This document shows positions 28,407 to 42,663 of a DNA stretch of 64,000 nucleotides, piece by piece. Every line of letters begins with the position of its first letter. The stretch's first letter is position 1. This DNA is from Dysgonamonadaceae bacterium (GTDB lineage Bacteria; Bacteroidota; Bacteroidia; Bacteroidales; Azobacteroidaceae): contig JAIRVZ010000128.1 of the NCBI GenBank assembly GCA_031253625.1, forward strand, positions 31,307 to 95,306, read 5' to 3'. The position numbers and the translations under genes were made by a program. The notes beneath the pieces are model-generated. The model was not told the DNA's origin. It saw only the letters and a list, made by a program, of their open reading frames with translations, and searched no databases.

Positions 28407-28448
28407 GAACACGAGTTTGTTTAACTAAACGACATTAAATTAAAAAAT

Positions 28449-29447
28449 ATGAAGCAAATATTATACAGATTATTCGAACATCAGTATTTGGGACGCGACG
28501 AAGCCCGACAAATACTTCAAAACATTACCGAAGGAAAATACAACGATTCGCAAATCGCCAGTTTGATTACGGTCTTCCTGATGCGTAGTATTTCCGTAGA
28601 AGAATTAACCGGATTTAGAGAGGCATTGCTGGAAATGCGAGTACCTATCGACCTGTCGGAATATCGTCCGATTGATATTGTTGGTACCGGTGGAGATGGA
28701 AAAAACACTTTCAACATCAGCACAACCTCTTGTTTTGTTGTTGCCGGAGCTGGTTATCCGGTGGTCAAGCACGGAAATGCCGGAGCAACTTCGATAAGCG
28801 GTGCCAGCAATGTGATGGAACAACATGGTGTGAAATTCACAACCAACATCGACCAATTGCGTCGTTCTTTAGACGATTCCGGCATTGCTTATTTGCATGC
28901 TCCGTTGTTTAATCCTGCTTTGAAAGCTGTGGCACCGGTACGCAAAATGCTGGGCGTGCGCAGCTTTTTCAATATGTTAGGGCCATTGGTCAATCCGGTT
29001 ATACCAACTTATCAATTGTTGGGAGTATACAATTTACCGCTATTGCGTTTATACAACTATACTTATCAGGAAAGCGGAACCCGTTTTGCCGTTGTACACA
29101 GTTTAGATGGTTTCGACGAAATTTCTCTGACATCGGAATTCAAAGTGGCTACTTCCGACAAAGAAAAATTATACACTCCCGAAATGCTTGGATTCAAACG
29201 CTATACGGAAGACGATTTATACGGAGGTTCCACAGTCGAGGAAGTTGCCCTGATTTTCGATGCTGTTCTGGAAAACAGAGCAACTGAGGCGCAAAAAAAT
29301 TGTGTTATCGTTAATTCGGCATTCGCCATTCAGGTTATTTGTCCCGAAAAAACGATAGAAACTTGTATCGACGAAGCGCGAGAATCTCTTGAAAGTGGAA
29401 AAGCCTTGCAATCTCTCAAACGTTTTTTAGCTATTAATCAATCATGA
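28449..29447 (+). CDS. trpD: Anthranilate phosphoribosyltransferase
   Basis: 332-aa ORF with DIVGTGGDG and the KHGN motif. Confidence 0.9.
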   Translation: MKQILYRLFEHQYLGRDEARQILQNITEGKYNDSQIASLITVFLMRSISVEELTGFREALLEMRVPIDLSEYRPIDIVGTGGDGKNTFNISTTSCFVVAGAGYPVVKHGNAGATSISGASNVMEQHGVKFTTNIDQLRRSLDDSGIAYLHAPLFNPALKAVAPVRKMLGVRSFFNMLGPLVNPVIPTYQLLGVYNLPLLRLYNYTYQESGTRFAVVHSLDGFDEISLTSEFKVATSDKEKLYTPEMLGFKRYTEDDLYGGSTVEEVALIFDAVLENRATEAQKNCVIVNSAFAIQVICPEKTIETCIDEARESLESGKALQSLKRFLAINQS

Positions 29448-30256
29448 AAGATATACTACAAGAAATTATAGACAACAAACGAATGGAAGTCTTGAAACAA
29501 AAAGAGGCTGTTCCTTTGGAATCGTTAATTGAATTAACTGCAGACAGATTCTGTGAATCCTGTTCTATGCGGGCATCTTTAGAAAAATCAGTATCCGGAA
29601 TTATTGCCGAATTCAAGCGGAAAAGTCCCTCGAAAGGCTGGTTATTTCCGGGTGCGGAAATCGCAGAAATTGTTCCGGCTTATGAAAAAGGAGGAGCCTC
29701 TGCCTGTTCGATTCTTACCGACCACAATTATTTTGGAGGTTCGTTAAGCGATTTGCAAAAAGCACGCGAATTGGTTAAAATGCCGTTGTTGCGAAAAGAA
29801 TTTATTGTCGACCCATATCAACTGTATCAAGCCAAATTGATGGGAGCCGATGCCATTTTATTAATCGCATCTTGCTTAAAAATAGAAGAATGTCGTATAT
29901 TGGCAGAAATTGCTCATACTTTAAGTTTGGAAGTCTTATTGGAAATTCACAACGAAAAAGAGTTGGAATATCTCGGTGAAAACATCGATATGTTGGGCGT
30001 AAATAATCGCAACTTAGGAACATTCGATACCGACATAAACAATTCTTTCCATTTGGTTGAAAAAATGAATCAGCGTTCACAGCAAATAGGAGGGAAGGCT
30101 CCGCTTTTAATCGCTGAAAGTGGGATCTCTGACCCGAAAACCGTTTTGCAATTGCGTGAAGCTGGTTTCAAAGGCTTTTTAATAGGTGAAACTTTCATGA
30201 AGACGAAGTACCCCGGAGAAACATTGTCTTTATTTATTAAAGAAATTTACCCCTAA
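29444..30256 (+). CDS. trpC: Indole-3-glycerol phosphate synthase
   Basis: 270-aa ORF with EFKRKSPSKG, DAILLI and NNRNL motifs. It has an ATGA overlap with trpD. Confidence 0.9.
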   Translation: MKDILQEIIDNKRMEVLKQKEAVPLESLIELTADRFCESCSMRASLEKSVSGIIAEFKRKSPSKGWLFPGAEIAEIVPAYEKGGASACSILTDHNYFGGSLSDLQKARELVKMPLLRKEFIVDPYQLYQAKLMGADAILLIASCLKIEECRILAEIAHTLSLEVLLEIHNEKELEYLGENIDMLGVNNRNLGTFDTDINNSFHLVEKMNQRSQQIGGKAPLLIAESGISDPKTVLQLREAGFKGFLIGETFMKTKYPGETLSLFIKEIYP

Positions 30257-30346
30257 ATCCCCTAAAGGGGACTTTAGTTTCTGAAAAGACCGATTGAAGC
30301 TAAGGTTTTATGCACTCCAAAGTCCCCTTTAGGGGATTTAGGGGTA
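30248..30346. repeat. 28-bp perfect inverted repeat spanning the trpC stop codon and the trpC-trpF spacer
   Basis: TACCCCTAAATCCCCTAAAGGGGACTTT (30248-30275) is the exact reverse complement of 30319-30346. Each arm contains its own CCCCTAAAGGGG palindrome. Confidence 0.9.
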
Positions 30347-30363
30347 GAAAAAAGAGAATTATT

Positions 30364-31767
30364 ATGATTATAAAAGTATGCGGAATGAAAAATCCTGAAA
30401 ATATTTCGGGAGTAATTGGGTTGGGAGTCAACTGGATAGGATTTATTTTTTACGAAAAATCAGCACGATATTTCGGAGATAATCCTGTTTCAATATCCTC
30501 CGGAAACACATTCAAGAAAATAGGCGTATTTGTAAATGCAACTTGCGAACAAATTCTTCAAACCGCTACCACACATCGATTGGATTATATTCAATTGCAT
30601 GGAGATGAAACACCCGAATTTTGTTGCCAATTGCAAAAACAAGGAATCGCTATTATCAAGGCATTTTCAATATCATCTGTTAAAGATTTGGAAAAAACTT
30701 CGGAATATGAAGGAAAAGCAGATTATTTTCTGTTTGATACTAAATGTGAGACTTACGGAGGTTCAGGCAAATCATTCGACTGGTCTATTTTATCTGCTTA
30801 TGAAGGAAAGACTCCATTTTTGTTGAGCGGAGGAATCAATCCTCAAAGCATTCAAACCATCAACGATTTTTATCATCCGCAACTTGCAGGAATTGACCTC
30901 AACAGCGGTTTTGAAATCGAACCGGGATTAAAAGACGTTCAAGAATTATCAGATTTTTTAAAAAATTACAATAATCAAATAAAATTATTCATCATGAATC
31001 GTATAACAAATTTATTTAATACAAAAAAATTGGGAATACTATCTGTTTATTTCACAGCTGGTTATCCAAATCTCAACGACACGACAACCATATTAAAAGA
31101 GTTGCAAGCAAAAGGCATTGACTTGGTTGAAATCGGTATCCCTTTCTCCGATCCGATGGCCGATGGACCGGTTATCCAACAAGCTGCAACACAAGCTCTT
31201 CGCAACGGAATGTCGTTGAAAAAGTTATTTGAACAACTCAACGATATTCGCAAGGAAATTCATATCCCACTGATACTTATGGGTTATCTGAATCCCGTTA
31301 TGCAATACGGATTTGAAAATTTCTGTCGCGATTGTGCCAAAGTTGGTATCGATGGAATGATTATCCCCGATCTTCCGTTTGCCGATTATATATCCGAATA
31401 CAAAGCCATTGCGGAGCAATACAATTTGAAGATGATAATGCTTATCACACCCGAAACTTCAGAAGAACGTATTCACCAAATCGACACTAACACCGATGGA
31501 TTTATCTACATGGTTTCGAGTGCAGCAACCACCGGAGCACAACAAAGTTTCGACGAACAAAAGCAAGCTTATTTCAGTCGCATCAATAATATGGCATTGC
31601 GTAATTCTCTCCTTGTAGGATTCGGTATCAGCAACAAAGCCACTCTCGACGCTGTCAACACTTATTCTTCAGGCGGTATTATCGGAAGTAAATTTATCCA
31701 GTTATTGCAAAGCGAAACAACTCCGGAAAAGGCTGTCGATAAATTATTGGAAGTACTTGGATTTTGA
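30364..31767 (+). CDS. trpFA: Phosphoribosylanthranilate isomerase (30364-30993) continuous in frame with tryptophan synthase alpha chain (30994-31767)
   Basis: TrpF-like MIIKVCGM...LSGGI...IDLNSGFE for about 210 aa, then MNRITNLF...[17 protein letters not shown] (TrpA), with no stop codon between them. Frame verified codon by codon across 30937-30999. Confidence 0.8.
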
Positions 31768-31784: not shown

Positions 31785-31792
31785 TATCTTTG
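31785..31792 (+). promoter_or_regulatory. -7 promoter box TAtcTTTG for regulator copy 1
   Basis: The same box and downstream leader are repeated nearly identically at 36718. Confidence 0.55.
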
Positions 31793-31835
31793 CATTGATT
31801 TTTCCATACACAGGAATTAAGAAAGCAATAACAAA

Positions 31836-33638
31836 ATGAAACTTACAACCCGATTTTTTATTCAGGGATTACTTTGTCTATTTATCTGTTTTATTTCTGC
31901 AACAGCTATTTATGGACAAAATAACGACTTTCAGCACAAGAAAGATTCGCTGCTAAACGTAATCGCATCTACACAAGGTGAAGAAAAATTAAAAGCTTAC
32001 GGAGTATTGACAAATTCACAACTGCAATTTCCGGATGAAGAAATTGATTCAAAGTTACAATACATAAATGACTTTATCCTCGAAGCGCGCAAACAAAAAA
32101 ACAAAGAATACGAAAGCATAGCATATAGAAATAAACTTGCTTGTTTTTGGAATCACTTAAAATTTGATGAATTTGATCGAGTAGTAAACGAATACCTATC
32201 TTTCTTTAAGAAAAATAATTTCCATGGAAACTACTACGATTTCTATGAGTGTTTGATACTGCGACGATACGGTGGAACGAATAATTACAAACACATGATA
32301 GAAGGAGTCAAGGAAATGTATATAGAAGCCCAACAAGAAGATTGCTTATATGGAATAATTAAAGCGACCTCTCTAATAGCCAATATATATATCGAAGAAA
32401 AACGCTATGAAGAAGCCGAAAAATACTATCGAGAAACAATAAAAAATGCACTTAAACTGATTAAAGAAGAACCCGGCCAACTTAATAATTATCGCTTAGT
32501 GTCAAGCGGATACTACGGATTGTCAAATGCTTTGTGGGCACAAAATAAGATAAACGAGTTACTTTCTTTAATGCCTGTTTGGAAAAAACATACGACCGTA
32601 TTTGAAAAAAAATTCGATTATCCCGAACCGAATTTAAGGTATTACTATAAGTGTTACGCTGAGATTTACATCGAAAAGGGCGAATACGATTTAGCCGAGT
32701 CATATTGCGATTCCATGAAATCAATAATCTCTCCTTTGGAATTGTTCTTTGTATGGAATATCAAAGCTGCTATTTGTAACGGACGCGAAGAGTACGATAG
32801 CGCTATTAATTGGATCGATAAAATTATTGAGGATAGAACGAATCTCGGAGATTTATCTCAAGTAATTTTCTGTTTAATAAAAAAAGCATCCATGCTAAGC
32901 GAAATGGGGCGCGCAAAAGAATTATATTCGGTTTTTGACAGCTATATTGAACTCAACGATTCTCTCCGCCTGTTGGAAAACAACGCCCAGCTCGACGAAA
33001 TCCGTACTCAATACGAAGTTGACAAATATGTTGCCGAAAAAGAACAACAACGTATAATTATTTTTTCTTTGATCGTTGTCTGCGTCGTGTCGTTAATCGC
33101 CCTCGGAATATGGATATACTACTACCGGAAAGTTACTCAAAAAAATCGCACATTAGCACAACAAATCAAAAAATTAACTATCCAACAGGAAGAACAAATC
33201 AATGAAATGCTTGCCAAAACCTCATTTTTATCTGATTCTCCTAACGAAACAACCGCAGTAGAAACAACAATCAACCCCGACCTGTGTATCGAAAGCCGAA
33301 TGGATAAATTGTGTATTGCTATCCGCGACCTCTTACTTAAAGAAAAGATTTACCGTAACTCAACTATTACTCAAGAACAAGTGGTTGAAAGATTGGGTAC
33401 AAACAAAAATGTATTTGCCAAAGCTATGGAATACTGTTTAAAAACGACATTCAAAGATTATGTTAACTCCCTTCGTTTGAAAGATGCCGTGCAGCTACTC
33501 GAACATTCCGACCTGTCGATAGAAGAAATTTCTGAAATGATAGGCTTCGGAACAATACGCACACTTCAAAACCAATTCAATACCAAATACAACATGACAC
33601 CCAAAAACTACCGGTATTTGGCAAAAACAACAATGTAA
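31836..33638 (+). CDS. Membrane-anchored one-component regulator: signal peptide, TPR-like extracytoplasmic domain, single TM, coiled coil, C-terminal AraC-type HTH (copy 1)
   Basis: 600 aa. Hydrophobic N-terminus, helical-repeat region rich in Y/E/K/A, TM segment IIIFSLIVVCVVSLIALGIWIYYY, and C-terminus NSLRLKDAVQLLEHSDLSIEEISEMIGFGTIRTLQNQFNTKYNMTPKNYR. Confidence 0.75.
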   Translation: MKLTTRFFIQGLLCLFICFISATAIYGQNNDFQHKKDSLLNVIASTQGEEKLKAYGVLTNSQLQFPDEEIDSKLQYINDFILEARKQKNKEYESIAYRNKLACFWNHLKFDEFDRVVNEYLSFFKKNNFHGNYYDFYECLILRRYGGTNNYKHMIEGVKEMYIEAQQEDCLYGIIKATSLIANIYIEEKRYEEAEKYYRETIKNALKLIKEEPGQLNNYRLVSSGYYGLSNALWAQNKINELLSLMPVWKKHTTVFEKKFDYPEPNLRYYYKCYAEIYIEKGEYDLAESYCDSMKSIISPLELFFVWNIKAAICNGREEYDSAINWIDKIIEDRTNLGDLSQVIFCLIKKASMLSEMGRAKELYSVFDSYIELNDSLRLLENNAQLDEIRTQYEVDKYVAEKEQQRIIIFSLIVVCVVSLIALGIWIYYYRKVTQKNRTLAQQIKKLTIQQEEQINEMLAKTSFLSDSPNETTAVETTINPDLCIESRMDKLCIAIRDLLLKEKIYRNSTITQEQVVERLGTNKNVFAKAMEYCLKTTFKDYVNSLRLKDAVQLLEHSDLSIEEISEMIGFGTIRTLQNQFNTKYNMTPKNYRYLAKTTM

Positions 33639-33666
33639 CTTATTGATATTCAATGCGCTGATAAAA

Positions 33667-33693
33667 TTTCGCTTTTTCGTGCTATTTTTTCGC
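33667..33693 (+). promoter_or_regulatory. Two TTTCGC motifs spaced exactly 21 bp apart, upstream of the fibre-1 promoter (candidate operator)
   Basis: TTTCGC at 33667 and 33688. The -7 box lies 27 nt downstream of the second motif. The geometry is analogous to the TTGGCC array at 38586-38654. Confidence 0.4.
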
Positions 33694-33714
33694 GTCGTTT
33701 TTCATCCTTCATTC

Positions 33715-33722
33715 TACTTTTG
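33715..33722 (+). promoter_or_regulatory. -7 promoter box TActTTTG for fibre gene 1
   Basis: A positionally equivalent TAccTTTG box occurs at 38677 upstream of fibre gene 2. Confidence 0.5.
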
Positions 33723-33813
33723 TGTTGTAAATTAATTTGTCGAAAAAAAAGAAAACGACAATTTATTCACACAACACATGCTAAGTTAAACATGAGGTTT
33801 AATAATTCATTAT

Positions 33814-33944
33814 CTCCGGTGTTTCTTTATCCTTATTAGGAAATTCGATAGTCCATATTTGCGAAAATACGGCGAATAGGCTTTTTGTGAAAAAAGTTTC
33901 TTTTTTATCTTTTTTATTTATGTGTATGATAAAGGACACCGGAG
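33814..33944 (+). promoter_or_regulatory. Conserved long-range inverted repeat in the fibre-1 leader
   Basis: CTCCGGTGTTTCTTTATC (33814-33831) pairs with GATAAAGGACACCGGAG (33928-33944). The same pair is present in copy 2 at 38760-38778 and 38877-38893. Confidence 0.6.
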
Positions 33945-33991
33945 TTTTTTTCAATTAACAATTAATACATACTAAAAAATAAAAAAAGAAA

Positions 33992-36634
33992 ATGATTATG
34001 AAAACTATTCAAAAAACAACAAAAACAAAGAATTTAAAGAAATTAAAGAACTTGAGGATTCTAAGAGAAGTAATGTCGTTAATATCCTTAATATCCTTAA
34101 TGGCGATAACGCCCCTACAAGCACAAGTGAAAATCGGCCAAGATGCTGAACCTAAAAAAGGTGCGGTGTTGGAATTAAACAGCAACTCAGAAGGTTATAT
34201 CGGAGGCTTGCGACTGCCCAATATATGGATAACAGATATAAATGTTATCCCGGCAAGTTTCACCGAAAACGGATTAAACACTACAGAAAAAGATTCCTTG
34301 GCAGGAGCAATCATTTACAACACAAATCCCGGATTAAAAAACGATGCCAACGAAACCACCGGAACCGGGGTGTATTATTGGACAGGAACAAAATGGGTAA
34401 AAGAAGTCAACAATAGTCGCACCACAGTAGTAGACCGCACTGCACCGATAACGGTAGCAAAGACCACAGCAGGAACCACAGATACATATACTGTAGGAAT
34501 TTCGACCGGAACAACAGGACAAGTGCTGACAACCAACGCATCGGGTAGTGCAATATGGGCAAATGTTCCTCCTCCAACCGTAACTGTCAATAACGGATTA
34601 ACACAACTTACAGATGCTGCGAAAACAATTCAACTGGGAGGTAGCTTAATTCAGAATACTGAGGTTAAAACCGGCACTAACAGTATGGTTTTTAGCACTA
34701 ATGGCGGCTCGCAAGGTCTGACGATTAAGAATGATTTTGTTGGAATTGGTGGAATTTCTACAATAAATAAATTTTATGTTAATGGAATATCTCGTATATC
34801 AGACGGCTTGGCTGTCGGCGGTGTGAATGTTCCGGACGGTTATATGTTGTATGTAGATGGAGGAAATTCTTATTTCAGCAATCGTGTAGGCATTGGAACT
34901 CCACCGAATAGTAATTATAGATTAACTGTTTCCGAAAAAGCCTATGTACAAGACGTTTTGCATGTCGGTGGAACTACTACTACAACCAACAAATTATTTG
35001 TTAATGGAAATACTCGTATAGAAGGCGGCTTAGGCGTTGGAGGAATTAATCCCACATATTGGTTAGATGTTAACGGAACTTCTCGCTTTTCAGGGAGTAT
35101 GTGGATCAACCCAAACCCTCAGCATGGCTCCGCCTCAGGAAGATTAGGCGTTGGAGTTGCACCCGGTACCAACCCCGATGCGTTAGTTCATATAAAAAAA
35201 GGAAATTACGCATATGAACATCTTCTTTTGCTGGAAGATGAATTTATACCTTCCATGCGTTTAGTCTTACCTAAAGATGCTGTAATGGACAGTCAACCCG
35301 ATTACAGACTGGGAATGATAATGTTTGGTAGAGACAACGCTATGCATCCGACATATCCCACATCTCCCAGCAATTGGGCTTGGGGTAACGGTTACAAACC
35401 GTATGCTCACATTGAAGTAGTAAGAACTGTAACCGGTAGCTCCATAGGTGGAACAATGAGATTTGCAACAGCCAATGGTTTTGAAAGTAATGGATTGGGC
35501 AGTGATACTGTAAGAATGACAATTAGCGATCGTGGAAACGTAGGTATCGGAATAGGTAAAAATCTCGCTTCAACAAGACTACACATTCAAACAGAAGGCA
35601 CAACGTCAAAACCTGTTGCAGGATTCACACTTGTCGACGGAACACAAGGACTCGGAAAAGTGCTGACATCAAATGCTTCCGGAGTAGGAACATGGAAGGA
35701 TTTACCTGCTGTTTTGAGCGATCTCGAACCTTGGTATGAGAGAAATACAGAAGGCCCTGCAACCCAAAATAATAAAGATGCTTATTTGAGAGCAAATGTG
35801 GCTCTCGGGTTTAGTAATGTCGGAGGTTTCCCTCAAATTGCAATAACAGACGAAGGTGCGGGAGTAGACCAGAATATCCGCCTGTATGTTAACGGAAATA
35901 CGGTTAATACAAATGATGTGCATGTTCATCACCGGATAGGGATTGGCATTGTTGGCGATGATAATCAAGGATATGTTCCTAAGGCGGCATTACACATTGT
36001 TAATAACCACCCGACACATGGCGCCAAACGTGCTGATATTGATATTTCAACATTTAGAGGAGAAGAAATGGAGCTGGATGATGGAACTCCGACACTCAAT
36101 TTTAAGACTTCGCGAGGCGAATGGACAGCACAATCTGATGCCAATGTCGACGATGTAATCGGTAAAATCCTTTTCCGACCAAACCAAGCAGAAACTGCTG
36201 CTTCTGCATCAATCACAGCAACTTACAAAGGAAATTATTCGGCCAAATTAGATTTCAAGGCAGAAGAATTTTATTTCAATGGAACAGCAATTGGCAGTAT
36301 TGTTTCCGACCGTCGTTTGAAAACAAACATCACTCCGTCGAAATACGGTTTATCGGAAATCATGCAATTACAACCGGTAAATTACGAACTGAAAAGCAAA
36401 CTGGGAGTTGAGCGTGTAGGCTTTATCGCCCAAGAAGTTCAACCGATTATACCCGAAGTAGTATCAGGCACCGAAGGCGACCTCAACAAAGGCGAAACAT
36501 TGTCTATTGCATATAGCGAGTTAGTGCCGGTATTGACAAAAGCCATTCAGGAACAGCAAACTCAAATCGAATCGCAACAAAAAATTATCGAACAATTAGA
36601 AGCCCGCTTGAAAGCGTTAGAGGCAGCAAAGTAA
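33992..36634 (+). CDS. Secreted fibre protein with C-terminal S74-type intramolecular chaperone (tail fibre domain-containing protein), copy 1
   Basis: 880 aa. Signal peptide ending PLQAQ. Conserved N-domain VKIGQDAEPKKGAVLELNS...GVYYWTGTKWVKE. The C-terminus SDRRLKTNITPSKYGLSEIMQLQPVNYE...GFIAQEVQPIIPEVV plus a coiled coil is typical of the endosialidase chaperone family. Confidence 0.8.
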   Translation: MIMKTIQKTTKTKNLKKLKNLRILREVMSLISLISLMAITPLQAQVKIGQDAEPKKGAVLELNSNSEGYIGGLRLPNIWITDINVIPASFTENGLNTTEKDSLAGAIIYNTNPGLKNDANETTGTGVYYWTGTKWVKEVNNSRTTVVDRTAPITVAKTTAGTTDTYTVGISTGTTGQVLTTNASGSAIWANVPPPTVTVNNGLTQLTDAAKTIQLGGSLIQNTEVKTGTNSMVFSTNGGSQGLTIKNDFVGIGGISTINKFYVNGISRISDGLAVGGVNVPDGYMLYVDGGNSYFSNRVGIGTPPNSNYRLTVSEKAYVQDVLHVGGTTTTTNKLFVNGNTRIEGGLGVGGINPTYWLDVNGTSRFSGSMWINPNPQHGSASGRLGVGVAPGTNPDALVHIKKGNYAYEHLLLLEDEFIPSMRLVLPKDAVMDSQPDYRLGMIMFGRDNAMHPTYPTSPSNWAWGNGYKPYAHIEVVRTVTGSSIGGTMRFATANGFESNGLGSDTVRMTISDRGNVGIGIGKNLASTRLHIQTEGTTSKPVAGFTLVDGTQGLGKVLTSNASGVGTWKDLPAVLSDLEPWYERNTEGPATQNNKDAYLRANVALGFSNVGGFPQIAITDEGAGVDQNIRLYVNGNTVNTNDVHVHHRIGIGIVGDDNQGYVPKAALHIVNNHPTHGAKRADIDISTFRGEEMELDDGTPTLNFKTSRGEWTAQSDANVDDVIGKILFRPNQAETAASASITATYKGNYSAKLDFKAEEFYFNGTAIGSIVSDRRLKTNITPSKYGLSEIMQLQPVNYELKSKLGVERVGFIAQEVQPIIPEVVSGTEGDLNKGETLSIAYSELVPVLTKAIQEQQTQIESQQKIIEQLEARLKALEAAK

Positions 36635-36717
36635 TTCTAAATTAATAAGTTTTCGTTGTTTTAATTTCTTCATTTCCATAAAATATGGGAAAATATATCA
36701 ATTTTGCAAATTTTCTT

Positions 36718-36725
36718 TATCTTTG
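36718..36725 (+). promoter_or_regulatory. -7 promoter box TAtcTTTG for regulator copy 2
   Basis: Duplicate of 31785-31792, with a near-identical leader. Confidence 0.55.
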
Positions 36726-36777
36726 CATTGGTAGTTACCATTTTTCCATACACAGGAATTAAGAAAGCAATAACAAA

Positions 36778-38565
36778 ATGAAACTTACAACCCGATTTTT
36801 TATTCAGGGATTACTTTGTCTATTTATCTGTTTTATTTCTGCAACAGCTATTTACGGACAAAACAACGACTTTCAGCACAAAAAAGATTCGCTGCTAAAA
36901 ATAATCGCCTCAACACAAGGCAAGGAAAAATTGGCGACATACAAACAACTAACGAATTCAAACTTTCACTTTCCGGAAGAGGAGATTAATATTAAACTGC
37001 AGTATATAAAAGATTTTATTCGCGAAGCGCGAAAACAGCAAAATAAAAAATACGAGAATGATGCTTACAGAGCAGAACTTGCTTGTTTGTGGAATAATTT
37101 AATGTTTGACAAATTTGAGCAAGAAGCGAAGCGATATCTACCTTTTTTTAAGGAGAATGGGTACAGTGAAAATTACTACGATATTTATGCCTGTATGATA
37201 ATCCGACAATACGGAAATGATAATTCCAAAGGCCTTACAGAAGGCACGAAAGAAATGTATGCAGAAGCCAAACAAGAAGATAACTTATATGGAATGTCCA
37301 AAGCAACCTATTTATTAGCAGAAATGTATTTTGTGGAAGAAAGATTTGATGATGCTGAAAAATACTATAACGAAACAATAAAAAATGTTTTATTACTGAT
37401 AAAAAATGCACCCGATAAATCTGACAATTACGACCTTGTGTCGTTTGGATATTATGGATTAGCACTCGCTCTGACACACCAAAAGAAAACAAATGAATTA
37501 CTTTTACTAATGCCTGTTTGGGAACAACATATAATTGCTTTTGAAAAAGCTTTCTGTTATTCCGAGCGACAAAAAAGATATTACTATAAAATCAAAGCTA
37601 AAATTTGTCTTTACAAAAAAGAATACGAAAAAGCTGAATTGTATTGCGATTCTATAGATGCAATAACTCCTTCTGTAGAATTATTTTTATCATGGGATTT
37701 AAGAGCTGACATTTGTGAAGCACGCGAAGAATATGATAAAGCCATTGATTGGATTGACAAAATCATATCATTCAACTCTAACATTGAAGAAACAATCAGC
37801 ATGGTGCATTTATTAAGATTAAAGTCGGAATATTTAAGCAAGATGGGAAGAGCGGAAGAATCATATTCGTTTTCAGAAATGGCATTTCAATATAATGATT
37901 CTCTTCGTACGTTAAAAACCAACGCCCAGCTCGATGAAATCCGTACCCAATACGAAGTAGACAAGCATGTTGCCAAAGAAGAACGCCAGCGCATAATTAT
38001 TTTTTCTTTGATTAGTGGCTGCATCGTGTTGCTCCTCGCACTTGGAATATGGATACATTACAGCCGGAAAATTACCCAAAAGAACCGCATATTGGCGCAT
38101 CAAATCAGAGAATTGACCATTCAACAAGAAGGGCAAATCAATGAAATGCTTACCAAAACCTCTTTTGTGCCGGAAGAAGAAAAACCGGAAACTGTTGACA
38201 GCGACTTATGTGTCGAAAGCCGTATGGATAAATTGTGTATCGCTATTCGTGATCTTTTGCTCAAGGAAAAGATATACCGCAACCCTGCCATTACCCAAGA
38301 TCTTGTGATTGAACAGTTGAGAACAAGCAGAAGATTATTCTCCGAAGCCTTTGAATATTGTTTCAACATGAAATTCAATGATTACATCAATTCCCTTCGT
38401 CTGAAAGATGCTGTAGTGCTCCTCGAACAATCCGATTTGTCAATAGAAGAAATTTCCGATAAGGTTGGTTTCGGAGCGGCACGTACTTTCCGGCGACAAT
38501 TTAGTGAAAAATACGGTATATCTCCCAAAAATTACAGAGATGAGAATGTAACCAGAATCTCCTAA
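36778..38565 (+). CDS. Membrane-anchored TPR / AraC-HTH one-component regulator (copy 2, paralogue of 31836-33638)
   Basis: 595 aa. The first 40 residues are identical to copy 1, and the domain order, juxtamembrane block NAQLDEIRTQYEVDK and HTH region are the same. Confidence 0.75.
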   Translation: MKLTTRFFIQGLLCLFICFISATAIYGQNNDFQHKKDSLLKIIASTQGKEKLATYKQLTNSNFHFPEEEINIKLQYIKDFIREARKQQNKKYENDAYRAELACLWNNLMFDKFEQEAKRYLPFFKENGYSENYYDIYACMIIRQYGNDNSKGLTEGTKEMYAEAKQEDNLYGMSKATYLLAEMYFVEERFDDAEKYYNETIKNVLLLIKNAPDKSDNYDLVSFGYYGLALALTHQKKTNELLLLMPVWEQHIIAFEKAFCYSERQKRYYYKIKAKICLYKKEYEKAELYCDSIDAITPSVELFLSWDLRADICEAREEYDKAIDWIDKIISFNSNIEETISMVHLLRLKSEYLSKMGRAEESYSFSEMAFQYNDSLRTLKTNAQLDEIRTQYEVDKHVAKEERQRIIIFSLISGCIVLLLALGIWIHYSRKITQKNRILAHQIRELTIQQEGQINEMLTKTSFVPEEEKPETVDSDLCVESRMDKLCIAIRDLLLKEKIYRNPAITQDLVIEQLRTSRRLFSEAFEYCFNMKFNDYINSLRLKDAVVLLEQSDLSIEEISDKVGFGAARTFRRQFSEKYGISPKNYRDENVTRIS

Positions 38566-38581
38566 TTTTTAACATTTGTAT

Positions 38582-38665
38582 AAAATTGGCCGCTTTTTGT
38601 ACAGTTTTGGCCTGTATTTGTGCAAAATTGGCCGTCCTTTGCGCAGTTTTGGCCTGTCCTTTTTA
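38582..38665 (+). promoter_or_regulatory. Two 42-nt tandem repeats carrying four TTGGCC motifs phased at exactly 21 bp (candidate AraC-type operator array)
   Basis: TTGGCC at 38586, 38607, 38628 and 38649. The last copy sits at the -33 position relative to the -7 box at 38677. Confidence 0.6.
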
Positions 38666-38676
38666 GTCCTTCGCTT

Positions 38677-38684
38677 TACCTTTG
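38677..38684 (+). promoter_or_regulatory. -7 promoter box TAccTTTG for fibre gene 2
   Basis: Consensus TAnnTTTG, about 270 nt upstream of the fibre-2 start. It is positionally equivalent to 33715. Confidence 0.5.
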
Positions 38685-38955
38685 TCCTATAAGTAAGTTG
38701 AAGAATAAAACAAAAAAATTATTCACACGACACAACTAAAAAGTTTAATAATTCATTATCTCCGGTGTTTCCTTTATCATTATTAGGAAATTTAGTAATC
38801 CATATTTGTGAAAATACGGCAAGCAGGCTTTTTGTGAAAAAAGTTTTCTTTTTTATCTTTTTTTATTTATGTGTGTGATAAAGGACACCGGAGTTAATTT
38901 TAACAAAGGAAATAAACAGTAAAATACATTATACTAATAAAAATAAAAAAAGAAA

Positions 38956-41900
38956 GTGATTATGAGAGTTATTCAAAAAACAAAAGTTTTAAATGTCTTA
39001 ATGGTTTTAATGTCCTTAATGCCATTAGTTACTACACAAGCACAAGTGAAAATCGGCCAAGATGCCGAACCCGTCAAAGGCACAGTATTGGAATTAAACA
39101 GCAATCCGGGAGGTTATATCGGTGGTTTGCGATTGACTAATGTATCTTTGGCAAGTATAACCGATTTAACACGGCTTAGCGAAACTCCCTCGGATGTGGC
39201 AGATTTGAAAGGAGCGATTGTTTACAATACAAACCCTGCCATAATCGGTGGAAATGGAACAGGTGTTTATTACTGGGATGGTGCCAAATGGGTAAAAGAT
39301 GCCGGCGCAACAGTTGATTTGGATGCTTGGTTAACAAAAGGAAATGCCGGAACAGATGCCTCGGTTAATTTTATCGGCACAAAAGATTATCAACCTCTAC
39401 AGTTCAAAATAGGCAATGTCTCAAATGTTGCCACGCATGCCGGACGACTTGCTACAACAACCACTTCTTTTGGCTTTAATGCCTTAGGCAAAAACACAAT
39501 AGGGATTCGTAATACCGCCGTAGGCGTGAATGCTTTATTTTCCAACACTCAAGGCAGTAGCAATACCGCTGTGGGAGACAGTGCATTGTATAAAAACACT
39601 ACAGGTTATGGAAACGCAGCAGTAGGTTATGCTGCGCTTGCGAACAATGTCAATGGTTTTGGGAATACCGCAATGGGCGATAGCGCATTACAAAATTCTA
39701 CAGGTAGCAGCAATACAGGAGTGGGGTATCATGCACTTGAAAGAAACACTGCAGCAGGGGTTAGGAATACCGCCATGGGTGCTTATGCGTTGCAAGGTAA
39801 TGCTTCTTCGTCTACCGGTGGAACAGGCAATACTGCGATAGGTTATGCTGCACTAAGAGATAAGCATTCTAATAGTAACTATAATACTGCAATTGGCGAC
39901 AGCGCATTAGCAAAGGTCAGTTATTCTTCCAACAACAATACAGCCATTGGTCATAAAGCCGGAAGTGAGATAACAAACGGCAAAAACAATATTGCTGTAG
40001 GAGTTAACGCACAGGTATATAAAAATGGTTCTGATACTTCTTCCGACCACCAGCTTGCTATCGGTAAGTTTATTTATGGAGTAACAGGCGATACTGAAGC
40101 CAATGCAAAAGTAGGTATCGGAACAAATAACCCTACTCGAAAACTCCATATCGACAATGGAACAACCAACGGAGCAATAAGAATTGTTGACGGAACAGAA
40201 GGACTTAATAAAGTATTGGCCTCCGCTGCCGACGGTACCGGAACATGGAAAGACCCCAATACAATTATCGACGCATGGTTTATCACAGGAAATTCCGGAA
40301 CAAACTCATCTAATTTTATTGGCACAAAAGATAATCAGTCATTGAGATTCAAAGTGAACAACACTCACGCCGGAATAATCATTCCCGGTAAAAGTAGTGT
40401 GGCGTTCGGGTACAACGCAGGGCCAAAATTCGATGGATCAGAGGCAGGAAATACTGCTTTCGGAACAAATGCGCTTGCTATGAGTGATTACCGCCAGTCT
40501 CATAATACCGCCATAGGTTATAATACGCTTGCAAACAATTTTGATACTAACCTCACCTGGGGTAACCATAATACGGCAATAGGTAGTAACGCGCTTGCAG
40601 CCAATAAAACCGGCAATTATAACACGGCCGTAGGTAGTTATGCGCTTGCTGCACATGCCGGCTATCTTTATGGTGGTGCAAATACAGCCATAGGTAGTCG
40701 TGCGCTTGCTAAAAGTACTTCCGGACAAGATAATACAGCCGTAGGTAATAATGCGCTTGCAGTAAGTGATGGAGTCTCTTATAGTACAGCCGTAGGTAGT
40801 GAAGCACTTGCTGCAAATACAAACGGCTCTTATAATACCGCCGTAGGTTATAAGTCGCTTGCAGCCAACAAAACCAGCCATAGGAATACCTCCATAGGTT
40901 ATGAGGCGCTTACTAAAAGTACAGCAGGCTGGAATACAGCTGTAGGTTATCAGGCGCTTGCCTCCGACACTACCGGTACTGATAATGTTGCTTTGGGAGT
41001 TTCAGCTCTTTACTGGAATGGAAAAGGGAGCTATAATGTTGCCGTAGGAGTGAGTGCTCTAAACAGCAACAGAGCAAGCAGTAATACGGCCGTAGGTTAT
41101 GAAGCGCATTGTACAATTGTCAATGGCGAATTTAATACAGCGTTAGGATATCGTGCCATGGGTAATGGCGGATCCATGTCCAGTGAGTATACTGGCAGTC
41201 GTAATACGGCCGTAGGCGACAGCGCATTGTATGGAATTACTTCCGGTAACCGCAATGTAGGTATTGGAGTTAAAGCAGGAAGTAATATACGAAGCGGTCA
41301 TAATAATATCACCATAGGAGTCAACGCACAGGTGGTGGGTATTAGCAACCAGATTTCGATTGCCAACCTGATATACGCAACCGGAGCAACCGGAGAGGCT
41401 AATACCGGAAATGTAGGTCTCGGAACAAACGACCCTCAAGCAAGACTACATATCGTTAAAGGAACTTCAGCTAACGGATTTATACTTCAAGACGGAATAA
41501 CAGCAAATCCTAACAATTATGTACTGACTGCCGATGCTCAAGGAGTTGGAACATGGAAACCGGCCGGTGGCGCCATCGAACCTTGGTATAAGATAGGAAG
41601 CAGTCCGGCTGCTCCGTCAACTTTAAATACAGACGATTCTTATTTGATGGCCAAAGTTGCTATTGGAGCTAACGCTATTGCTACTGTTCATGAAAATCAG
41701 GCTCAATTAACCGTCGTAGGCGGAGATGTTTCTATTCAAGGAATTACTGTTGGGACAGGAAAAGGCAACGATAATACAAATACTGCCGTAGGTCGTAATA
41801 CATTAAGCAAACTTCAACCAAGAGAAGCAACTGAAACAGAAATTGCAGGTGCTAGTCATGAAGATCGAATAGGAGTTACATATGGAGATGGAAGATATAA

Positions 41901-42663
41901 TTTAGCATTCGGTAGCGGTACAGGTTGGAATATAACAACCGGAACAGGTAACATAATAATGGGTAGTATTACTGATTTATCAACCGGAAGATTTAACACT
42001 GCGATTGGATGTCGTTCTAGTGTGAGTCCTAATGATAATCATCAAATTTCAATACATAATTTGATAAATGCAACAGGTGCAACAGGCGTAATGCACTCAA
42101 ATCCAGCTATATCAGATGATTATGTAGGCGAAGGAAAAGTGGGTATCGGAACAAATCGGCCTAAAGCAAAATTACATGTTATGCTTACAAATGGTATATC
42201 GAAAACTTATGAGCCGGGTTTTATGCTTCAAGATGGAAGTCAAGAAGACGGTTATGTGCTGACATCAAATGCCGACGGATTAGCCAAATGGATGGAACCT
42301 AACGGAACCGGTTCAGATCGTCGCTTGAAAACAAACATTACTCCCTCAAAATATGGCTTATCGGAAATCATGAAATTACAACCGGTAAACTACGAATTGA
42401 TAAGCAAACCCGGAGTTGAACGTGTAGGCTTCATTGCCCAAGAAGTTAAACAGATAATTCCCGAAGTTGTTCTTGGAACTGAAGGCGATCTCGAAAAAGG
42501 TGAAACATTATCTGTTGTTTATGGCGAATTTGCTCCGGTATTAACAAAAGCCATTCAAGAACAACAAACTCAAATCGAATCATTGCTAAACTTAGTTGAA
42601 TCACAACAAAAAATTATCGAACAATTAGAAGCCCGCTTGAAAGCATTAGAAACAGCGAAGTAA
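38956..42663 (+). CDS. Secreted repeat-rich fibre/adhesin with C-terminal S74-type intramolecular chaperone, copy 2
   Basis: 1235 aa. The ORF track uses GTG at 38956; an ATG lies at 38962. Same N-domain and C-terminal SDRRLK chaperone domain as copy 1, with a central region of many NTA(V/I)G..AL repeats. Confidence 0.8.
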   Translation: MIMRVIQKTKVLNVLMVLMSLMPLVTTQAQVKIGQDAEPVKGTVLELNSNPGGYIGGLRLTNVSLASITDLTRLSETPSDVADLKGAIVYNTNPAIIGGNGTGVYYWDGAKWVKDAGATVDLDAWLTKGNAGTDASVNFIGTKDYQPLQFKIGNVSNVATHAGRLATTTTSFGFNALGKNTIGIRNTAVGVNALFSNTQGSSNTAVGDSALYKNTTGYGNAAVGYAALANNVNGFGNTAMGDSALQNSTGSSNTGVGYHALERNTAAGVRNTAMGAYALQGNASSSTGGTGNTAIGYAALRDKHSNSNYNTAIGDSALAKVSYSSNNNTAIGHKAGSEITNGKNNIAVGVNAQVYKNGSDTSSDHQLAIGKFIYGVTGDTEANAKVGIGTNNPTRKLHIDNGTTNGAIRIVDGTEGLNKVLASAADGTGTWKDPNTIIDAWFITGNSGTNSSNFIGTKDNQSLRFKVNNTHAGIIIPGKSSVAFGYNAGPKFDGSEAGNTAFGTNALAMSDYRQSHNTAIGYNTLANNFDTNLTWGNHNTAIGSNALAANKTGNYNTAVGSYALAAHAGYLYGGANTAIGSRALAKSTSGQDNTAVGNNALAVSDGVSYSTAVGSEALAANTNGSYNTAVGYKSLAANKTSHRNTSIGYEALTKSTAGWNTAVGYQALASDTTGTDNVALGVSALYWNGKGSYNVAVGVSALNSNRASSNTAVGYEAHCTIVNGEFNTALGYRAMGNGGSMSSEYTGSRNTAVGDSALYGITSGNRNVGIGVKAGSNIRSGHNNITIGVNAQVVGISNQISIANLIYATGATGEANTGNVGLGTNDPQARLHIVKGTSANGFILQDGITANPNNYVLTADAQGVGTWKPAGGAIEPWYKIGSSPAAPSTLNTDDSYLMAKVAIGANAIATVHENQAQLTVVGGDVSIQGITVGTGKGNDNTNTAVGRNTLSKLQPREATETEIAGASHEDRIGVTYGDGRYNLAFGSGTGWNITTGTGNIIMGSITDLSTGRFNTAIGCRSSVSPNDNHQISIHNLINATGATGVMHSNPAISDDYVGEGKVGIGTNRPKAKLHVMLTNGISKTYEPGFMLQDGSQEDGYVLTSNADGLAKWMEPNGTGSDRRLKTNITPSKYGLSEIMKLQPVNYELISKPGVERVGFIAQEVKQIIPEVVLGTEGDLEKGETLSVVYGEFAPVLTKAIQEQQTQIESLLNLVESQQKIIEQLEARLKALETAK

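What the first reader, a model, noticed from the sequence alone, without database searches (positions are those of the whole stretch)
31785..42663. Tandemly duplicated regulator-plus-fibre modules with no phage context
Two consecutive copies (~4.9 and ~5.9 kb) share the same two-gene architecture. Gene (i) encodes a regulator with a signal peptide, a TPR-like extracytoplasmic domain, one TM segment and a cytoplasmic AraC-type HTH. Gene (ii), 350-390 nt downstream, encodes a large Sec-signal-bearing fibre ending in a phage tailspike/endosialidase-type intramolecular chaperone domain. The copies are mosaic. They are near-identical at the regulator promoter and the first 40 codons, and clearly similar at the regulator juxtamembrane and HTH parts, the fibre leader, the fibre N-domain and the C-terminal chaperone. 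They diverge strongly in the sensor TPR region and the fibre central, presumably binding, region. That pattern fits cassette-like diversification of a sensor and its cognate surface fibre. No capsid, terminase, baseplate, integrase or T9SS C-terminal domain accompanies the fibres. I therefore infer a cellular, self-regulated surface fibre or adhesin system that I do not recognise as characterised.
Basis: partly seen in the sequence, partly recalled or inferred. Interest (0 to 1): 0.8.

Follow-up and report, generated by a model that had tools for sequence, protein, structure and literature searches.

The report
Membrane regulator plus exported phage-like fibre
A termite-gut-type Bacteroidales chromosome carries two tandem copies of a two-gene unit, a membrane-spanning sensor-regulator followed by an exported, self-cleaving, phage-tail-fibre-like protein, joined by regulator-specific DNA repeats and a conserved folded RNA leader; nothing like it has been characterised.

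Summary
Window 31785-42663 has two tandem modules. Each encodes a signal-peptide/TPR/one-TM/AraC regulator (63% identical pair) and a Sec-signal fibre that ends in Peptidase_S74. The mosaic similarity pattern is as described.

All 64 kb is housekeeping DNA (trp operon upstream, tsaD and tamB downstream), with no phage genes.

In related metagenome contigs, every S74 fibre with readable upstream sequence follows such a regulator. Arrays reach three modules and sit at different chromosomal sites. The pairing is confined to one Dysgonamonadaceae clade. Elsewhere the regulator family precedes T9SS adhesins, fimbrillins and other surface proteins.

Three new features sit between regulator and fibre:
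1. Module-specific direct repeats with a 21-bp period, abutting an invariant TAnnTTTG promoter box. Their similarity tracks the regulator's HTH, not its sensor.
2. The 21-bp periodicity recurs beside distant family members.
3. A ~135-nt leader with a long closing helix and two GNRA hairpins. It shows compensatory changes and has no Rfam match.

Best reading: a membrane-spanning one-component activator (SusR/BguR-like logic, different domains) drives its neighbouring fibre gene. The fibre is a domesticated tail fibre, exported by Sec and trimerised by its self-cleaving chaperone. Surface display, the signal sensed and the leader's role are inferred only.

The parts
31785..31792 (+). Promoter -7 box (TATCTTTG, matching Bacteroidetes TAnnTTTG) of regulator 1. 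The copy for regulator 2 is at 36718-36725.
   Evidence: Read from the sequence. It lies in the block that is 88-100% identical between modules. Promoter function is inferred from the known Bacteroides consensus.
31836..33638 (+). Regulator 1 (600 aa): signal peptide, periplasmic TPR domain, one TM segment (residues 403-432), cytoplasmic AraC-type DNA-binding domain.
   Evidence: Pfam HTH_18 E 9e-13 and TPR_12 E 8e-9. Hydropathy profile. 63% identical to regulator 2.
33663..33694 (+). Module 1 candidate operator: two direct repeats (AAAATTTCGC / ATTTTTTCGCG) with cores 21 bp apart. The proximal core ends 22 nt before the -7 box.
   Evidence: Equivalent module-specific 21-bp repeats occur in all 15 modules.
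33715..33722 (+). Fibre 1 promoter -7 box (TACTTTTG).
   Evidence: The TACyTTTG motif was located in each of the 15 modules, amid otherwise variable sequence.
33811..33947 (+). Conserved structured 5' leader, copy 1. P1 closing helix arms include 33814-33822 and 33936-33944. P2 GNRA hairpin at 33853-33872. P3 GNRA hairpin at 33881-33896. A U-rich tract follows.
   Evidence: Covariance model hit of 161.8 bits. Pair counts and covariation. No Rfam match.
33992..36634 (+). Fibre 1 (880 aa; likely start at 33998). Sec signal ending ...PLQA|Q, N-domain at 34124-34411, phage-tail-fibre-like shaft, S74 chaperone from Ser772 (nt 36305-36463), C-terminal coiled coil.
   Evidence: Pfam S74 E 1e-15. PHROG tail-fibre families. 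N-domain HMM. SDRRLK motif at residue 772. Precomputed PF26696 plus PF13884 on the near-identical database protein P0001, 878 aa.
36778..38565 (+). Regulator 2 (595 aa), same architecture as regulator 1.
   Evidence: Pfam HTH_18 E 3e-16. AF2 model with pLDDT 85.9: eight TPR-like repeats (30-355), one helix 359-460 through the membrane, AraC domain 479-594. Foldseek hits to LGN TPR (E 7e-7) and the YesN AraC domain (TMt 0.85).
38574..38662 (+). Module 2 candidate operator: four direct repeats with cores WWTTGGCC at 38584, 38605, 38626 and 38647, exactly 21 bp apart.
   Evidence: (TRF period 21/42). Near-identical repeats occur in L015, whose regulator HTH is 95% identical while its sensor is only 52% identical.
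38677..38684 (+). Fibre 2 promoter -7 box (TACCTTTG).
38757..38896 (+). Conserved structured 5' leader, copy 2.
   Evidence: Covariance model hit of 156.4 bits. MFE -40.6 kcal/mol, z = -5.4 against shuffles.
38956..42663 (+). Fibre 2 (1235 aa; likely start at 38962). Sec signal, N-domain at 39043-39303, long NTAVG-type repeat region, S74 chaperone from Ser1120 (nt 42313-42474).
   Evidence: Pfam S74 E 2e-15. phrog_4636 tail spike E 3e-72. SDRRLK at residue 1120.

Best explanation
Each module is a two-gene regulatory and structural unit on the chromosome of a Dysgonamonadaceae bacterium.

Gene 1 encodes a membrane-spanning one-component transcription factor. After a cleaved signal peptide it has an eight-repeat TPR superhelix in the periplasm. 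One long helix crosses the inner membrane. A short linker leads to a cytoplasmic AraC-type DNA-binding domain. It contains no kinase or receiver domain. It is transcribed from its own small promoter, which is conserved between modules.

When the TPR domain meets its cue, the protein binds two to four module-specific direct repeats. The cue is unknown; by structural analogy it is a peptide or protein. The repeats are spaced 21 bp apart and end just upstream of the -33 region of the fibre promoter (-7 box TACyTTTG). Binding there activates transcription.

The fibre mRNA starts with a leader of about 280-330 nt. The leader contains a conserved element of about 135 nt: a roughly 16-20-bp closing helix, two GNRA-capped hairpins and a U-rich tract. 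This element adds a second, post-initiation layer of control (stability, antitermination or translation), which I cannot resolve.

The fibre precursor is exported by Sec. Its C-terminal S74 intramolecular chaperone trimerises it, then cuts itself off at the Ser of SDRRLK. The mature product is a trimeric fibre derived from a phage tail fibre. It has a conserved N-terminal anchoring or trimerisation domain and a variable distal part.

Shown here: domain content, topology signals, gene order, conservation of the pairing, the operator repeats and their co-variation with the HTH, and the leader's pairing pattern.

Inferred: activation, the ligand, autocleavage, surface exposure, and an adhesin role, perhaps attachment in the termite gut.
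For: - Domains and topology.
- Signal-peptide context across homologues. The fibre N-domain begins at about residue 20-57 (mostly 21-30) in all but a few of the 150 best of 1215 family representatives. A nearly invariant Gln follows the hydrophobic N-terminus in regulators and fibres, which fits the Bacteroidetes signal-peptidase-I 'Q-rule' (my knowledge).
- Pairing. Every S74 fibre found with upstream sequence available has the regulator directly upstream on the same strand: the window (x2), L001 (x3), L006, L007, L008, L013, L016, L097 and L101. The truncated loci L015 and L020 show the same regulator-then-N-domain order but end before the fibre's C-terminus.
- Operator.
  - 21-bp direct repeats are specific to each module and sit at a fixed 22 nt from the -7 box in both window modules.
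  - HTH identity correlates with repeat-region similarity (Spearman 0.57, Mantel p = 0.0004). Sensor identity does not (-0.24).
  - In 39 intergenic regions beside distant family members, offset 21 gives the best self-match in 16. It reaches at least 13 of 16 matches in 13 of them, against 0-2 for any other offset.
  - AraC-type domains of Bacteroides hybrid two-component systems are predicted to bind direct repeats of two 14-bp sites with a 6-bp spacer (PMC3878776).
- Leader.
  - 98.1% of cells are paired, against 49-61% in slid controls. Four pairs change on both sides, against 0.8 in shuffles (0 of 500 reach the observed value).
  - RNAalifold recovers P1 and P2 independently.
  - Loops vary only within GNRA: GUGA, GCGA, GUAA, GAGA.
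  - Divergent copies L099 and L010 keep the helices through further double changes and G-U pairs.
  - All 17 copies have the same orientation as the fibre gene.
- S74. The HMM hit is significant and the Ser-x5-Lys motif sits at the domain start. The fibre bodies match phage tail-fibre PHROGs.
Against: - No experiment exists. Everything comes from uncultured metagenome bins.
- HTH-coding DNA and the repeats lie 80-220 bp apart. Co-inheritance of a recombination block could produce their correlation without any binding (caveat).
- No route across the outer membrane is evident. There is no lipobox and no T9SS CTD, so the fibre could be periplasmic or released.
- The leader alignment has low diversity, with an effective sequence number of 1.35. 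P3 competes with an alternative pairing to the U-tract.
- The transcription start is not mapped. The leader could in principle lie upstream of a second promoter, because CATATTTG inside P2 is one mismatch from the -7 consensus.
- One close regulator (L099, 59% identical) precedes a T9SS adhesin rather than a fibre. The regulator is therefore not fibre-specific.
Confidence: 0.6

Rival explanations
1. The fibres are leftovers of a prophage. Alternatively they are fibres for a tailocin, contractile injection system or gene-transfer agent encoded elsewhere, and the regulators are unrelated neighbours.
For: The S74 domain and the fibre bodies are homologous to phage tail fibres and tailspikes. NCBI names the proteins 'tail fiber domain-containing protein'.
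Against: - No capsid, terminase, portal, sheath, baseplate or integrase gene occurs anywhere in the 64 kb.
- Modules in other contigs sit inside different housekeeping neighbourhoods.
- All family members carry an N-terminal Sec signal. That does not fit assembly onto a particle in the cytoplasm.
- The best phage hits are 31-38% identical, and none of the listed top hits is from a Bacteroidota phage.
- One IMG/VR scan with the N-domain found nothing.
Confidence: 0.05
2. The inverted repeat in the intergenic region marks an invertible promoter (phase variation by site-specific recombination), as is common for Bacteroidales surface structures.
For: An imperfect inverted repeat of about 20 nt flanks roughly 80-115 bp upstream of a surface-protein gene. 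A near-consensus -7 box (CATATTTG) lies inside it.
Against: - All 17 copies, from several assemblies, are in one orientation.
- No recombinase gene lies in the window or beside the modules.
- Many arm differences are G-U compatible, which would be mismatches in a DNA repeat. The interior holds two GNRA hairpins with covariation.
- A perfect TAnnTTTG box lies outside the repeat and upstream of it in every module examined.
Confidence: 0.05
3. The regulator does control the fibre, but the fibre is not an anchored adhesin. It would instead be a released or vesicle-borne binding protein, a bacteriocin-like or decoy molecule, or a periplasmic structure.
For: - No known surface-anchoring or outer-membrane export signal is present.
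- The variable distal region and tandem paralogues fit an arms-race molecule as well as they fit an adhesin.
- N-domain relatives carry lectin-like and Ig-like C-terminal domains of many kinds.
Against: The conserved N-domain directly after the signal peptide resembles the particle-attachment end of phage fibres, which suggests docking to a fixed cellular partner. This is an analogy only. Nothing here discriminates between the two readings.
Confidence: 0.2
4. The conserved intergenic block is a set of protein-binding DNA sites, for example looping sites for the regulator about 122 bp apart, and not an RNA.
For: The centres of the two arms are 122-125 bp apart in several modules, close to an integral number of helical turns. 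AraC itself works by looping (my knowledge).
Against: - The block is nearly identical between modules whose HTH domains differ by 35-65%. A module-specific regulator would not be expected to share it.
- G-U-compatible changes and GNRA loops are strand-specific RNA signatures.
- In L015, L016, L008, L099 and L010 insertions change the arm distance by 10-30 nt.
Confidence: 0.08

Closest known systems
SusR and BguR, the membrane-spanning one-component regulators of Bacteroidota
   Same: The layout is the same: signal peptide, periplasmic sensor, single TM helix, cytoplasmic DNA-binding domain, no phosphorelay. Both act on an adjacent gene cluster and have direct-repeat DNA motifs. Reg2 gives a sub-threshold DUF6377 match across the last TPR, the TM segment and the juxtamembrane helix. 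DUF6377 proteins are reported in or beside carbohydrate-utilisation gene clusters, one of them a PUL.
   Different: - The sensor here is a TPR superhelix. BguR has a beta-propeller and SusR binds maltose.
- The output domain here is AraC/HTH_18. BguR has GerE and SusR its own HTH.
- The target here is a single surface-protein gene, not a polysaccharide utilisation locus.
- The repeats are contiguous 21-bp units, not sites 67-77 bp apart.
- The DUF6377 threshold is not met (26.1 bits against 36.7).
AraC-type output domains of Bacteroides hybrid two-component systems
   Same: They share the DNA-binding domain family and predicted direct-repeat operators with a period of about 20 bp upstream of the regulated operon.
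   Different: The window regulators have no histidine kinase or receiver domain and no Y_Y_Y/propeller sensor.
Phage tail fibres and tailspikes with a C-terminal intramolecular chaperone (endosialidase and T5 L-shaped-fibre type)
   Same: They share the Peptidase_S74 domain with a Ser...Lys motif at the cleavage site, a trimeric fibre-like body and a conserved N-terminus with a variable distal part. The chaperone mechanism itself is taken from my knowledge of those phage proteins.
   Different: The window fibres have a Sec signal peptide and a cellular N-terminal domain (PF26696) in place of a virion-attachment domain. Each has a dedicated chromosomal regulator. No phage genes are nearby.
TIGR04094, 'YSIRK-targeted surface antigen transcriptional regulator' of Firmicutes
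   Same: It is an AraC-type regulator encoded next to the surface-protein gene it is named for. Reg2 gives a weak match (E 4e-7, 29 bits).
   Different: The match is far below that family's cutoff of 200 bits. TIGR04094 is a model named for regulators of Firmicutes surface antigens, a different phylum. I did not check its domain layout.
ToxR, TcpP and CadC membrane-bound transcription factors
   Same: One polypeptide senses outside the cytoplasm and binds DNA while membrane-anchored (my knowledge).
   Different: The topology is opposite: in those proteins the DNA-binding domain is N-terminal. Their DNA-binding domain is a winged helix and they have no TPR sensor. This comparison was not tested here.

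Membership tests
Peptidase_S74 / intramolecular chaperone of endosialidase (PF13884) | HMM score above the Pfam gathering threshold, located at the C-terminus | tested here: met
   58.1 and 57.0 bits against a cutoff of 22, at residues 772-824 of 880 and 1120-1173 of 1235.
Peptidase_S74 / intramolecular chaperone of endosialidase (PF13884) | Cleavage-site Ser with Lys five residues later (catalytic dyad) | tested here: met
   SDRRLK at residues 772 and 1120. Variants SDARLK, SDERWK and SDHRLK occur in homologues. The role of the dyad is taken from my knowledge of endosialidase.
Peptidase_S74 / intramolecular chaperone of endosialidase (PF13884) | Trimerisation-dependent self-cleavage | not testable with these tools
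   Requires expression and mass spectrometry.
AraC/XylS transcription factors (HTH_18, PF12833) | HMM above threshold, and a seven-helix double-HTH fold | tested here: met
   48.7 and 60.1 bits against 33.6. The AF2 model has seven helices in 479-594. Foldseek match to 3lsg with TMt 0.85 and 30% identity.
TPR superhelix sensor | Repeated helix-turn-helix pairs that form a superhelix | tested here: met
   TPR_12 scores 36 bits against 30.1 in reg1. The AF2 model has 16 helices in 30-355 with pLDDT mostly above 90. Foldseek match to LGN/Pins TPR with E 7e-7.
Membrane-spanning one-component system (SusR/BguR kind) | Signal peptide, periplasmic sensor, single TM, cytoplasmic DNA-binding domain, no phosphorelay modules | tested here: met
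   The definition is taken from the paper read.
SusR-like family (DUF6377, PF19904) | HMM score above the gathering threshold | tested here: not met
   Reg2 scores 26.1 bits against 36.7. Reg1 has no hit.
PTL_trimer (PF26696), the fibre N-domain | Pfam hit | tested here: inconclusive
   Precomputed hits are listed for the matching database proteins P0001 and P0006, and a 'weak' one in L001. The model is absent from the local Pfam copy. My own profile finds 1215 relatives. I could not learn what the family name stands for.
T9SS cargo | C-terminal sorting domain (PF18962) | tested here: not met
   Absent from both fibres. Present in the next gene, 42815-45316.
Prophage, tailocin or contractile injection system | Accompanying capsid, terminase, sheath, baseplate or integrase genes | tested here: not met
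   None among about 45 ORFs of the window scanned with Pfam. None around modules in other contigs.
Invertible promoter (inverton) | Both orientations observed, and a nearby invertase | tested here: not met
   0 of 17 copies are inverted. No recombinase is adjacent.
Any Rfam family (for the leader) | Covariance-model match | tested here: not met
   Only a chance-level miRNA hit at E 0.75. Nothing at gathering thresholds.
Known anti-phage defence systems (PADLOC) | HMM hit | tested here: not met
   No hit for any of the four proteins.

The most novel reading that the evidence does not exclude
Bacteroidales possess an unrecognised class of TPR/TM/AraC membrane one-component activators. Each is wired by its own 21-bp operator repeats to a single neighbouring surface-protein gene. 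In one termite-gut clade the partners are domesticated phage tail fibres. These fibres are exported by Sec and matured by their self-cleaving chaperone. They attach through a widespread, uncharacterised N-terminal domain, which would imply a new kind of cell appendage or a new outer-membrane display route. Their mRNAs carry a new structured cis-regulatory RNA with two GNRA hairpins. Recombination shuffles sensor, HTH-plus-operator and fibre parts as cassettes.
Probability: 0.35. Interest if true: 0.78.

Novelty: new variant of a known kind. Interest (0 to 1): 0.6.

Why it matters
- It would add a third type of membrane-spanning one-component regulator in Bacteroidota, and the first unrelated to glycan use. 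The paper read says that a comparable architecture had been described only for SusR.
- The paralogues look like a natural set of orthogonal regulator-operator pairs, which could be useful as genetic parts.
- It would show a phage tail fibre recruited as a Sec-exported cellular protein. It also points to a widespread N-terminal domain (over 1200 representative clusters) whose role in displaying lectin-like and Ig-like proteins in gut Bacteroidales is unknown.
- The leader is a candidate new RNA motif.
- For termite-gut symbionts, variable fibres under sensor control are plausible attachment determinants.

Tried and rejected
- Sequence search of both fibres and of the N-domain profile against PDB found nothing.
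- The AF2 monomer of the N-domain (pLDDT 85) has no significant fold match in PDB. It is probably an intertwined trimer that a monomer model cannot represent.
- The N-domain search in GTDB reference genomes found nothing, and one search in IMG/VR found nothing. The A5 alignment was too diverse for the locus finder.
- Three regulators could not be located on contigs.
- Literature searches for PF26696 / PTL_trimer and for S74 proteins in Bacteroidota gave nothing relevant.
- The sigma-70 promoter and terminator scan was uninformative, as expected for Bacteroidetes.
- Autoregulation was rejected. No operator repeat lies upstream of either regulator gene.
- A sensor-fibre or sensor-operator correlation was not seen.
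- Pairing of the leader's U-tract with the A-rich translation start region is stronger than for other genes in module 1 (-14.0 against -6.8 +/- 2.9 kcal/mol; 0 of 33 as good). It is not in module 2 (4 of 33 as good). I keep this only as a lead.
- The covariance model found no leader next to the 76 distant regulators.

Full report
**What is in the window**

Region 31785-42663 holds four + strand ORFs: reg1 31836-33638 (600 aa), fib1 33992-36634 (880 aa), reg2 36778-38565 (595 aa) and fib2 38956-42663 (1235 aa).

Pfam gives HTH_18/AraC at the C-terminus of both regulators (E 9e-13 and 3e-16), with TPR hits in the N-terminal half. It gives Peptidase_S74 at the C-terminus of both fibres (E 1e-15 and 2e-15).

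Hydropathy shows two hydrophobic segments in each regulator (2-28 and 403-432, the second followed by R/K). Each fibre has one N-terminal segment.

The regulators are 63% identical. The fibres align only over the signal and N-domain and over the last 116 residues, which are 83% identical.

At DNA level the regulator promoter and about the first 45 codons are 88-100% identical. The rest of the regulator gene is 60-83% identical and a core of the regulator-fibre spacer is 85-87% identical.

The sensor part is only slightly more diverged than the rest (58% against 66% protein identity).

**Context**

The window matches a metagenome-assembled Dysgonamonadaceae genome; the near-identical fibre proteins and the identical regulator carry that name in NCBI.

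- Upstream lies a trp operon with its Rfam Bacteroid-trp leader.
- Downstream lie a CotH/LTD protein with a T9SS sorting domain, then tsaD, a TamB-like gene, cysS and others.
- The remaining ORFs are housekeeping.
- There is no capsid, terminase, baseplate, sheath or integrase gene in the 64 kb.
- The nearest phage proteins are 31-38% identical, and none of the listed top hits is from a Bacteroidota phage.
- PADLOC finds nothing.

The prophage refutation test therefore fails.

**Conservation of the pairing**

Database searches with a fibre and with a regulator returned hits whose contig lengths coincide for at least ten contigs.

Reading contigs confirms adjacency:
- L001 has three tandem modules.
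- L006, L007, L008, L013, L015, L016 and L020 have one module each.
- L097 has a module between rodA and a PBP1a gene. L101 has one beside tpiA and folE.

Every S74-ending fibre with upstream sequence available is preceded by a regulator on the same strand.

The relationship is not exclusive:
- A regulator 59% identical to reg2 precedes a 1499-aa T9SS adhesin (L099).
- One at 44% identity precedes a 4761-aa T9SS adhesin (L004).
- Across 76 loci with 22-66% identical regulators in reference genomes of Tannerellaceae, Alistipes, Parabacteroides, Proteiniphilum and others, no S74 or N-domain gene lies within 10 kb.
- Their downstream genes often encode InlB-repeat, Laminin_G, Big_2, BspA-LRR, GLUG, fimbrillin, DUF3575 or T9SS-tagged proteins.

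The regulator family is therefore linked to surface-protein genes in general. The fibre partnership is a speciality of one clade, seen almost only in two sample sets (JGI 3300027891 and ERZ27257342).

**The regulator**

An AlphaFold model built on 34 homologues has mean pLDDT 85.9. It shows 16 helices forming eight TPR-like repeats (30-355). A single helix of about 100 residues (359-460) contains the TM segment. A disordered linker follows, then a seven-helix AraC domain (479-594).

Foldseek matches the sensor to LGN/Pins and kinesin-light-chain TPR domains and to the peptide-sensing NprR. It matches the C-terminus to the YesN AraC domain.

A nearly invariant Gln follows the N-terminal hydrophobic segment in the family alignment. 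To my knowledge this is typical of signal-peptidase-I substrates in Bacteroidetes.

The layout equals that of the membrane-spanning one-component regulators SusR and BguR. The BguR paper says that a comparable architecture had been described only for SusR. However, the sensor and DNA-binding domains here belong to other families, and the Pfam model for PUL-linked relatives (DUF6377) is not reached (26 bits against 36.7).

**The operator**

An alignment of 12 regulator-fibre spacers, extended to 15 modules, shows a TACyTTTG motif, a perfect match to the Bacteroidetes TAnnTTTG -7 box, in every module within otherwise variable sequence.

Immediately upstream lie two to four direct repeats with a 21-bp period. 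Their core differs between modules: TTTCGC in window module 1, TTGGCC in module 2, TTGTCC, CGGACTGTGTGG, ATTTGAAYGTT and others.
- In module 2 the cores sit at 38584, 38605, 38626 and 38647. TRF finds the array independently.
- In both window modules the last core ends 22 nt before the -7 box. That puts the last core roughly at -40 to -35, next to the -33 element.

Across the 15 modules, similarity of the repeat region correlates with identity of the HTH domain (Spearman 0.57, Mantel p = 0.0004). It does not correlate with the sensor (-0.24).
- Module 2 and L015 share their repeats. Their HTH is 95% identical, yet their sensors are only 52% identical.
- L001b and L016 share a distinct HTH type and a distinct repeat.

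Physical linkage could contribute to this correlation. A test free of that confound supports binding. In 39 spacers next to distant regulators, a 21-nt offset gives the best self-match in 16. It reaches at least 13 of 16 matches in 13 of them, against 0-2 for every other offset from 12 to 35.

Direct repeats of about this period are the predicted sites of AraC-type domains in Bacteroides.

No copy of the module-specific repeats precedes the regulator genes. The regulator promoters are almost identical between modules. I therefore find no sign of autoregulation.

**The leader**

Between the promoter and the start codon lies a block conserved more strongly than the coding sequences. It consists of:
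- an imperfect inverted repeat, AUCUCCGGUGUUUCCUUUAUC ... GAUAAAGGACACCGGAG;
- a first hairpin, CCAUAUUU-GUGA-AAAUACGG;
- a second hairpin, CUUUUU-GUGA-AAAAAG;
- a U-rich tract.

Evidence for an RNA structure:
- All 17 copies point the same way as the fibre gene. This argues against an invertible promoter.
- On a 15-sequence alignment my three-helix structure pairs 98.1% of cells, against 49-61% when partners are slid. Four pairs change on both sides, against 0.8 in shuffles (0 of 500 shuffles reach the observed value).
- RNAalifold recovers the closing helix and the first hairpin.
- A single copy folds with z = -5.4.
- The loops change only within GNRA (GUGA, GCGA, GUAA, GAGA).
- Many one-sided changes are G-U compatible.

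A covariance model found one further copy, at L010:223-382 (70 bits). It carries additional double changes in P1 and P2. It lies downstream of its own 21-bp repeats and -7 box, ahead of a 682-aa protein with a T9SS-like C-terminus and an S74-less N-domain protein.

Rfam has no match.

The diversity is low (effective sequence number 1.35). The second hairpin competes with pairing to the U-tract. I therefore rate the RNA reading as likely, not proven, and its function as open.

**The fibres**

The N-terminal hydrophobic stretch ends ...QA|QVKIGQD in all close homologues.

The following ~95-residue domain, listed as PF26696 'PTL_trimer' in precomputed annotations, is not in the local Pfam copy. 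My profile of it finds 1215 representative clusters. In nearly all of the 150 listed the domain starts at about residue 20-57.

Of 79 relatives scanned, 30 end in a Fib_succ_major domain and 14 in S74. Others carry Ig, PKD, Lcl_C or BACON domains. The domain therefore looks like a general N-terminal module of exported Bacteroidales binding proteins.

Its monomer model has no known fold match.

The fibre bodies match phage tail-fibre and tailspike PHROGs (phrog_4636 at E 3e-72 for fib2; phrog_1980 covering residues 563-878 of fib1).

The S74 domains begin with SDRRLK, the Ser...Lys arrangement of the self-cleaving chaperone.

No T9SS domain or lipobox is present. How or whether the fibre crosses the outer membrane is unknown.

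**Verdict**

The system is cellular and uncharacterised, the pairing is conserved, and the regulator very probably controls its neighbour.

It needs correction on autoregulation, on what co-varies, on taxonomic breadth and on the certainty of surface display.

The system works like SusR/BguR-type one-component control, applied to a domesticated phage fibre. It fails the sequence test for membership of the SusR-like family. I class it as a new variant of a known kind, with a candidate new RNA motif attached.

Noticed in passing
window 33952-33966; L006 about 5450-5500; L098 about 8135-8185: Between the leader and the fibre start codon lies a run of heptamer repeats (ACAATTA / CAATTAA). Its copy number varies between modules from about 1 to 6. 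This could tune leader length or be slippage-prone.
   Followed up: no
L010:501-2549 and L014:7303-9525: Two homologous proteins of 682 and 740 aa (50% identical) have no Pfam hit. Each has a signal peptide and a C-terminus that reads like a T9SS sorting domain. Each sits directly upstream of an N-domain protein that lacks S74. In L010 the pair is preceded by 21-bp repeats, a -7 box and a divergent leader.
   Followed up: partly
L099:7477-7644 and L010:223-382: The leader copies ahead of T9SS-type genes replace the U-rich tract with a short extra hairpin (CGGAU...AUCCG / UCGGA...UCCGA) and a GU-rich stretch. This suggests two subtypes of the RNA.
   Followed up: partly
window 42815-45316: The gene directly after fibre 2 encodes an 833-aa protein with LTD, CHB_HEX_C_1 and CotH kinase domains and a T9SS C-terminal domain. 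Whether it belongs functionally with the fibres is unknown.
   Followed up: no
window 24861-24995: An Rfam Bacteroid-trp leader (62.7 bits) lies upstream of the trp operon (25105-31767).
   Followed up: yes
window 30310-31767: A single 485-aa ORF carries both PRAI (trpF) and Trp_syntA (trpA) domains. It is either a fusion or a misjoined pair.
   Followed up: no
window 11814-13306: A 1.5-kb stretch between lepA and a NIF3 gene has no long ORF. GC is about 0.31 with strong G-over-C skew. It contains AT-rich tandem repeats of 24 nt (11906-12013) and 13/26 nt (12242-12292).
   Followed up: no
window 9402-10001 and 21910-23163: The only mobile-element-flavoured genes in the window are an ORF6N-domain protein and a HipA-like toxin kinase. 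Both lie more than 8 kb from the modules.
   Followed up: no
window 23374-24528 (- strand): A BACON plus Lcl_C protein. The same C-terminal domain types occur in relatives of the fibre N-domain family, but this protein lacks the N-domain.
   Followed up: partly
L100:8301-8962: Behind a full regulator, operator and leader, the fibre gene is reduced to small ORFs of 44 and 178 aa. The N-domain reading frame is broken near QVK(I)G. This looks like a decaying module.
   Followed up: no
fibre N-domain relatives P0111-P0247: The N-domain family is large. It includes many short proteins of about 100-130 aa that consist of the signal peptide plus the domain alone. One protein has eight tandem partial copies (P0161).
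   Followed up: no
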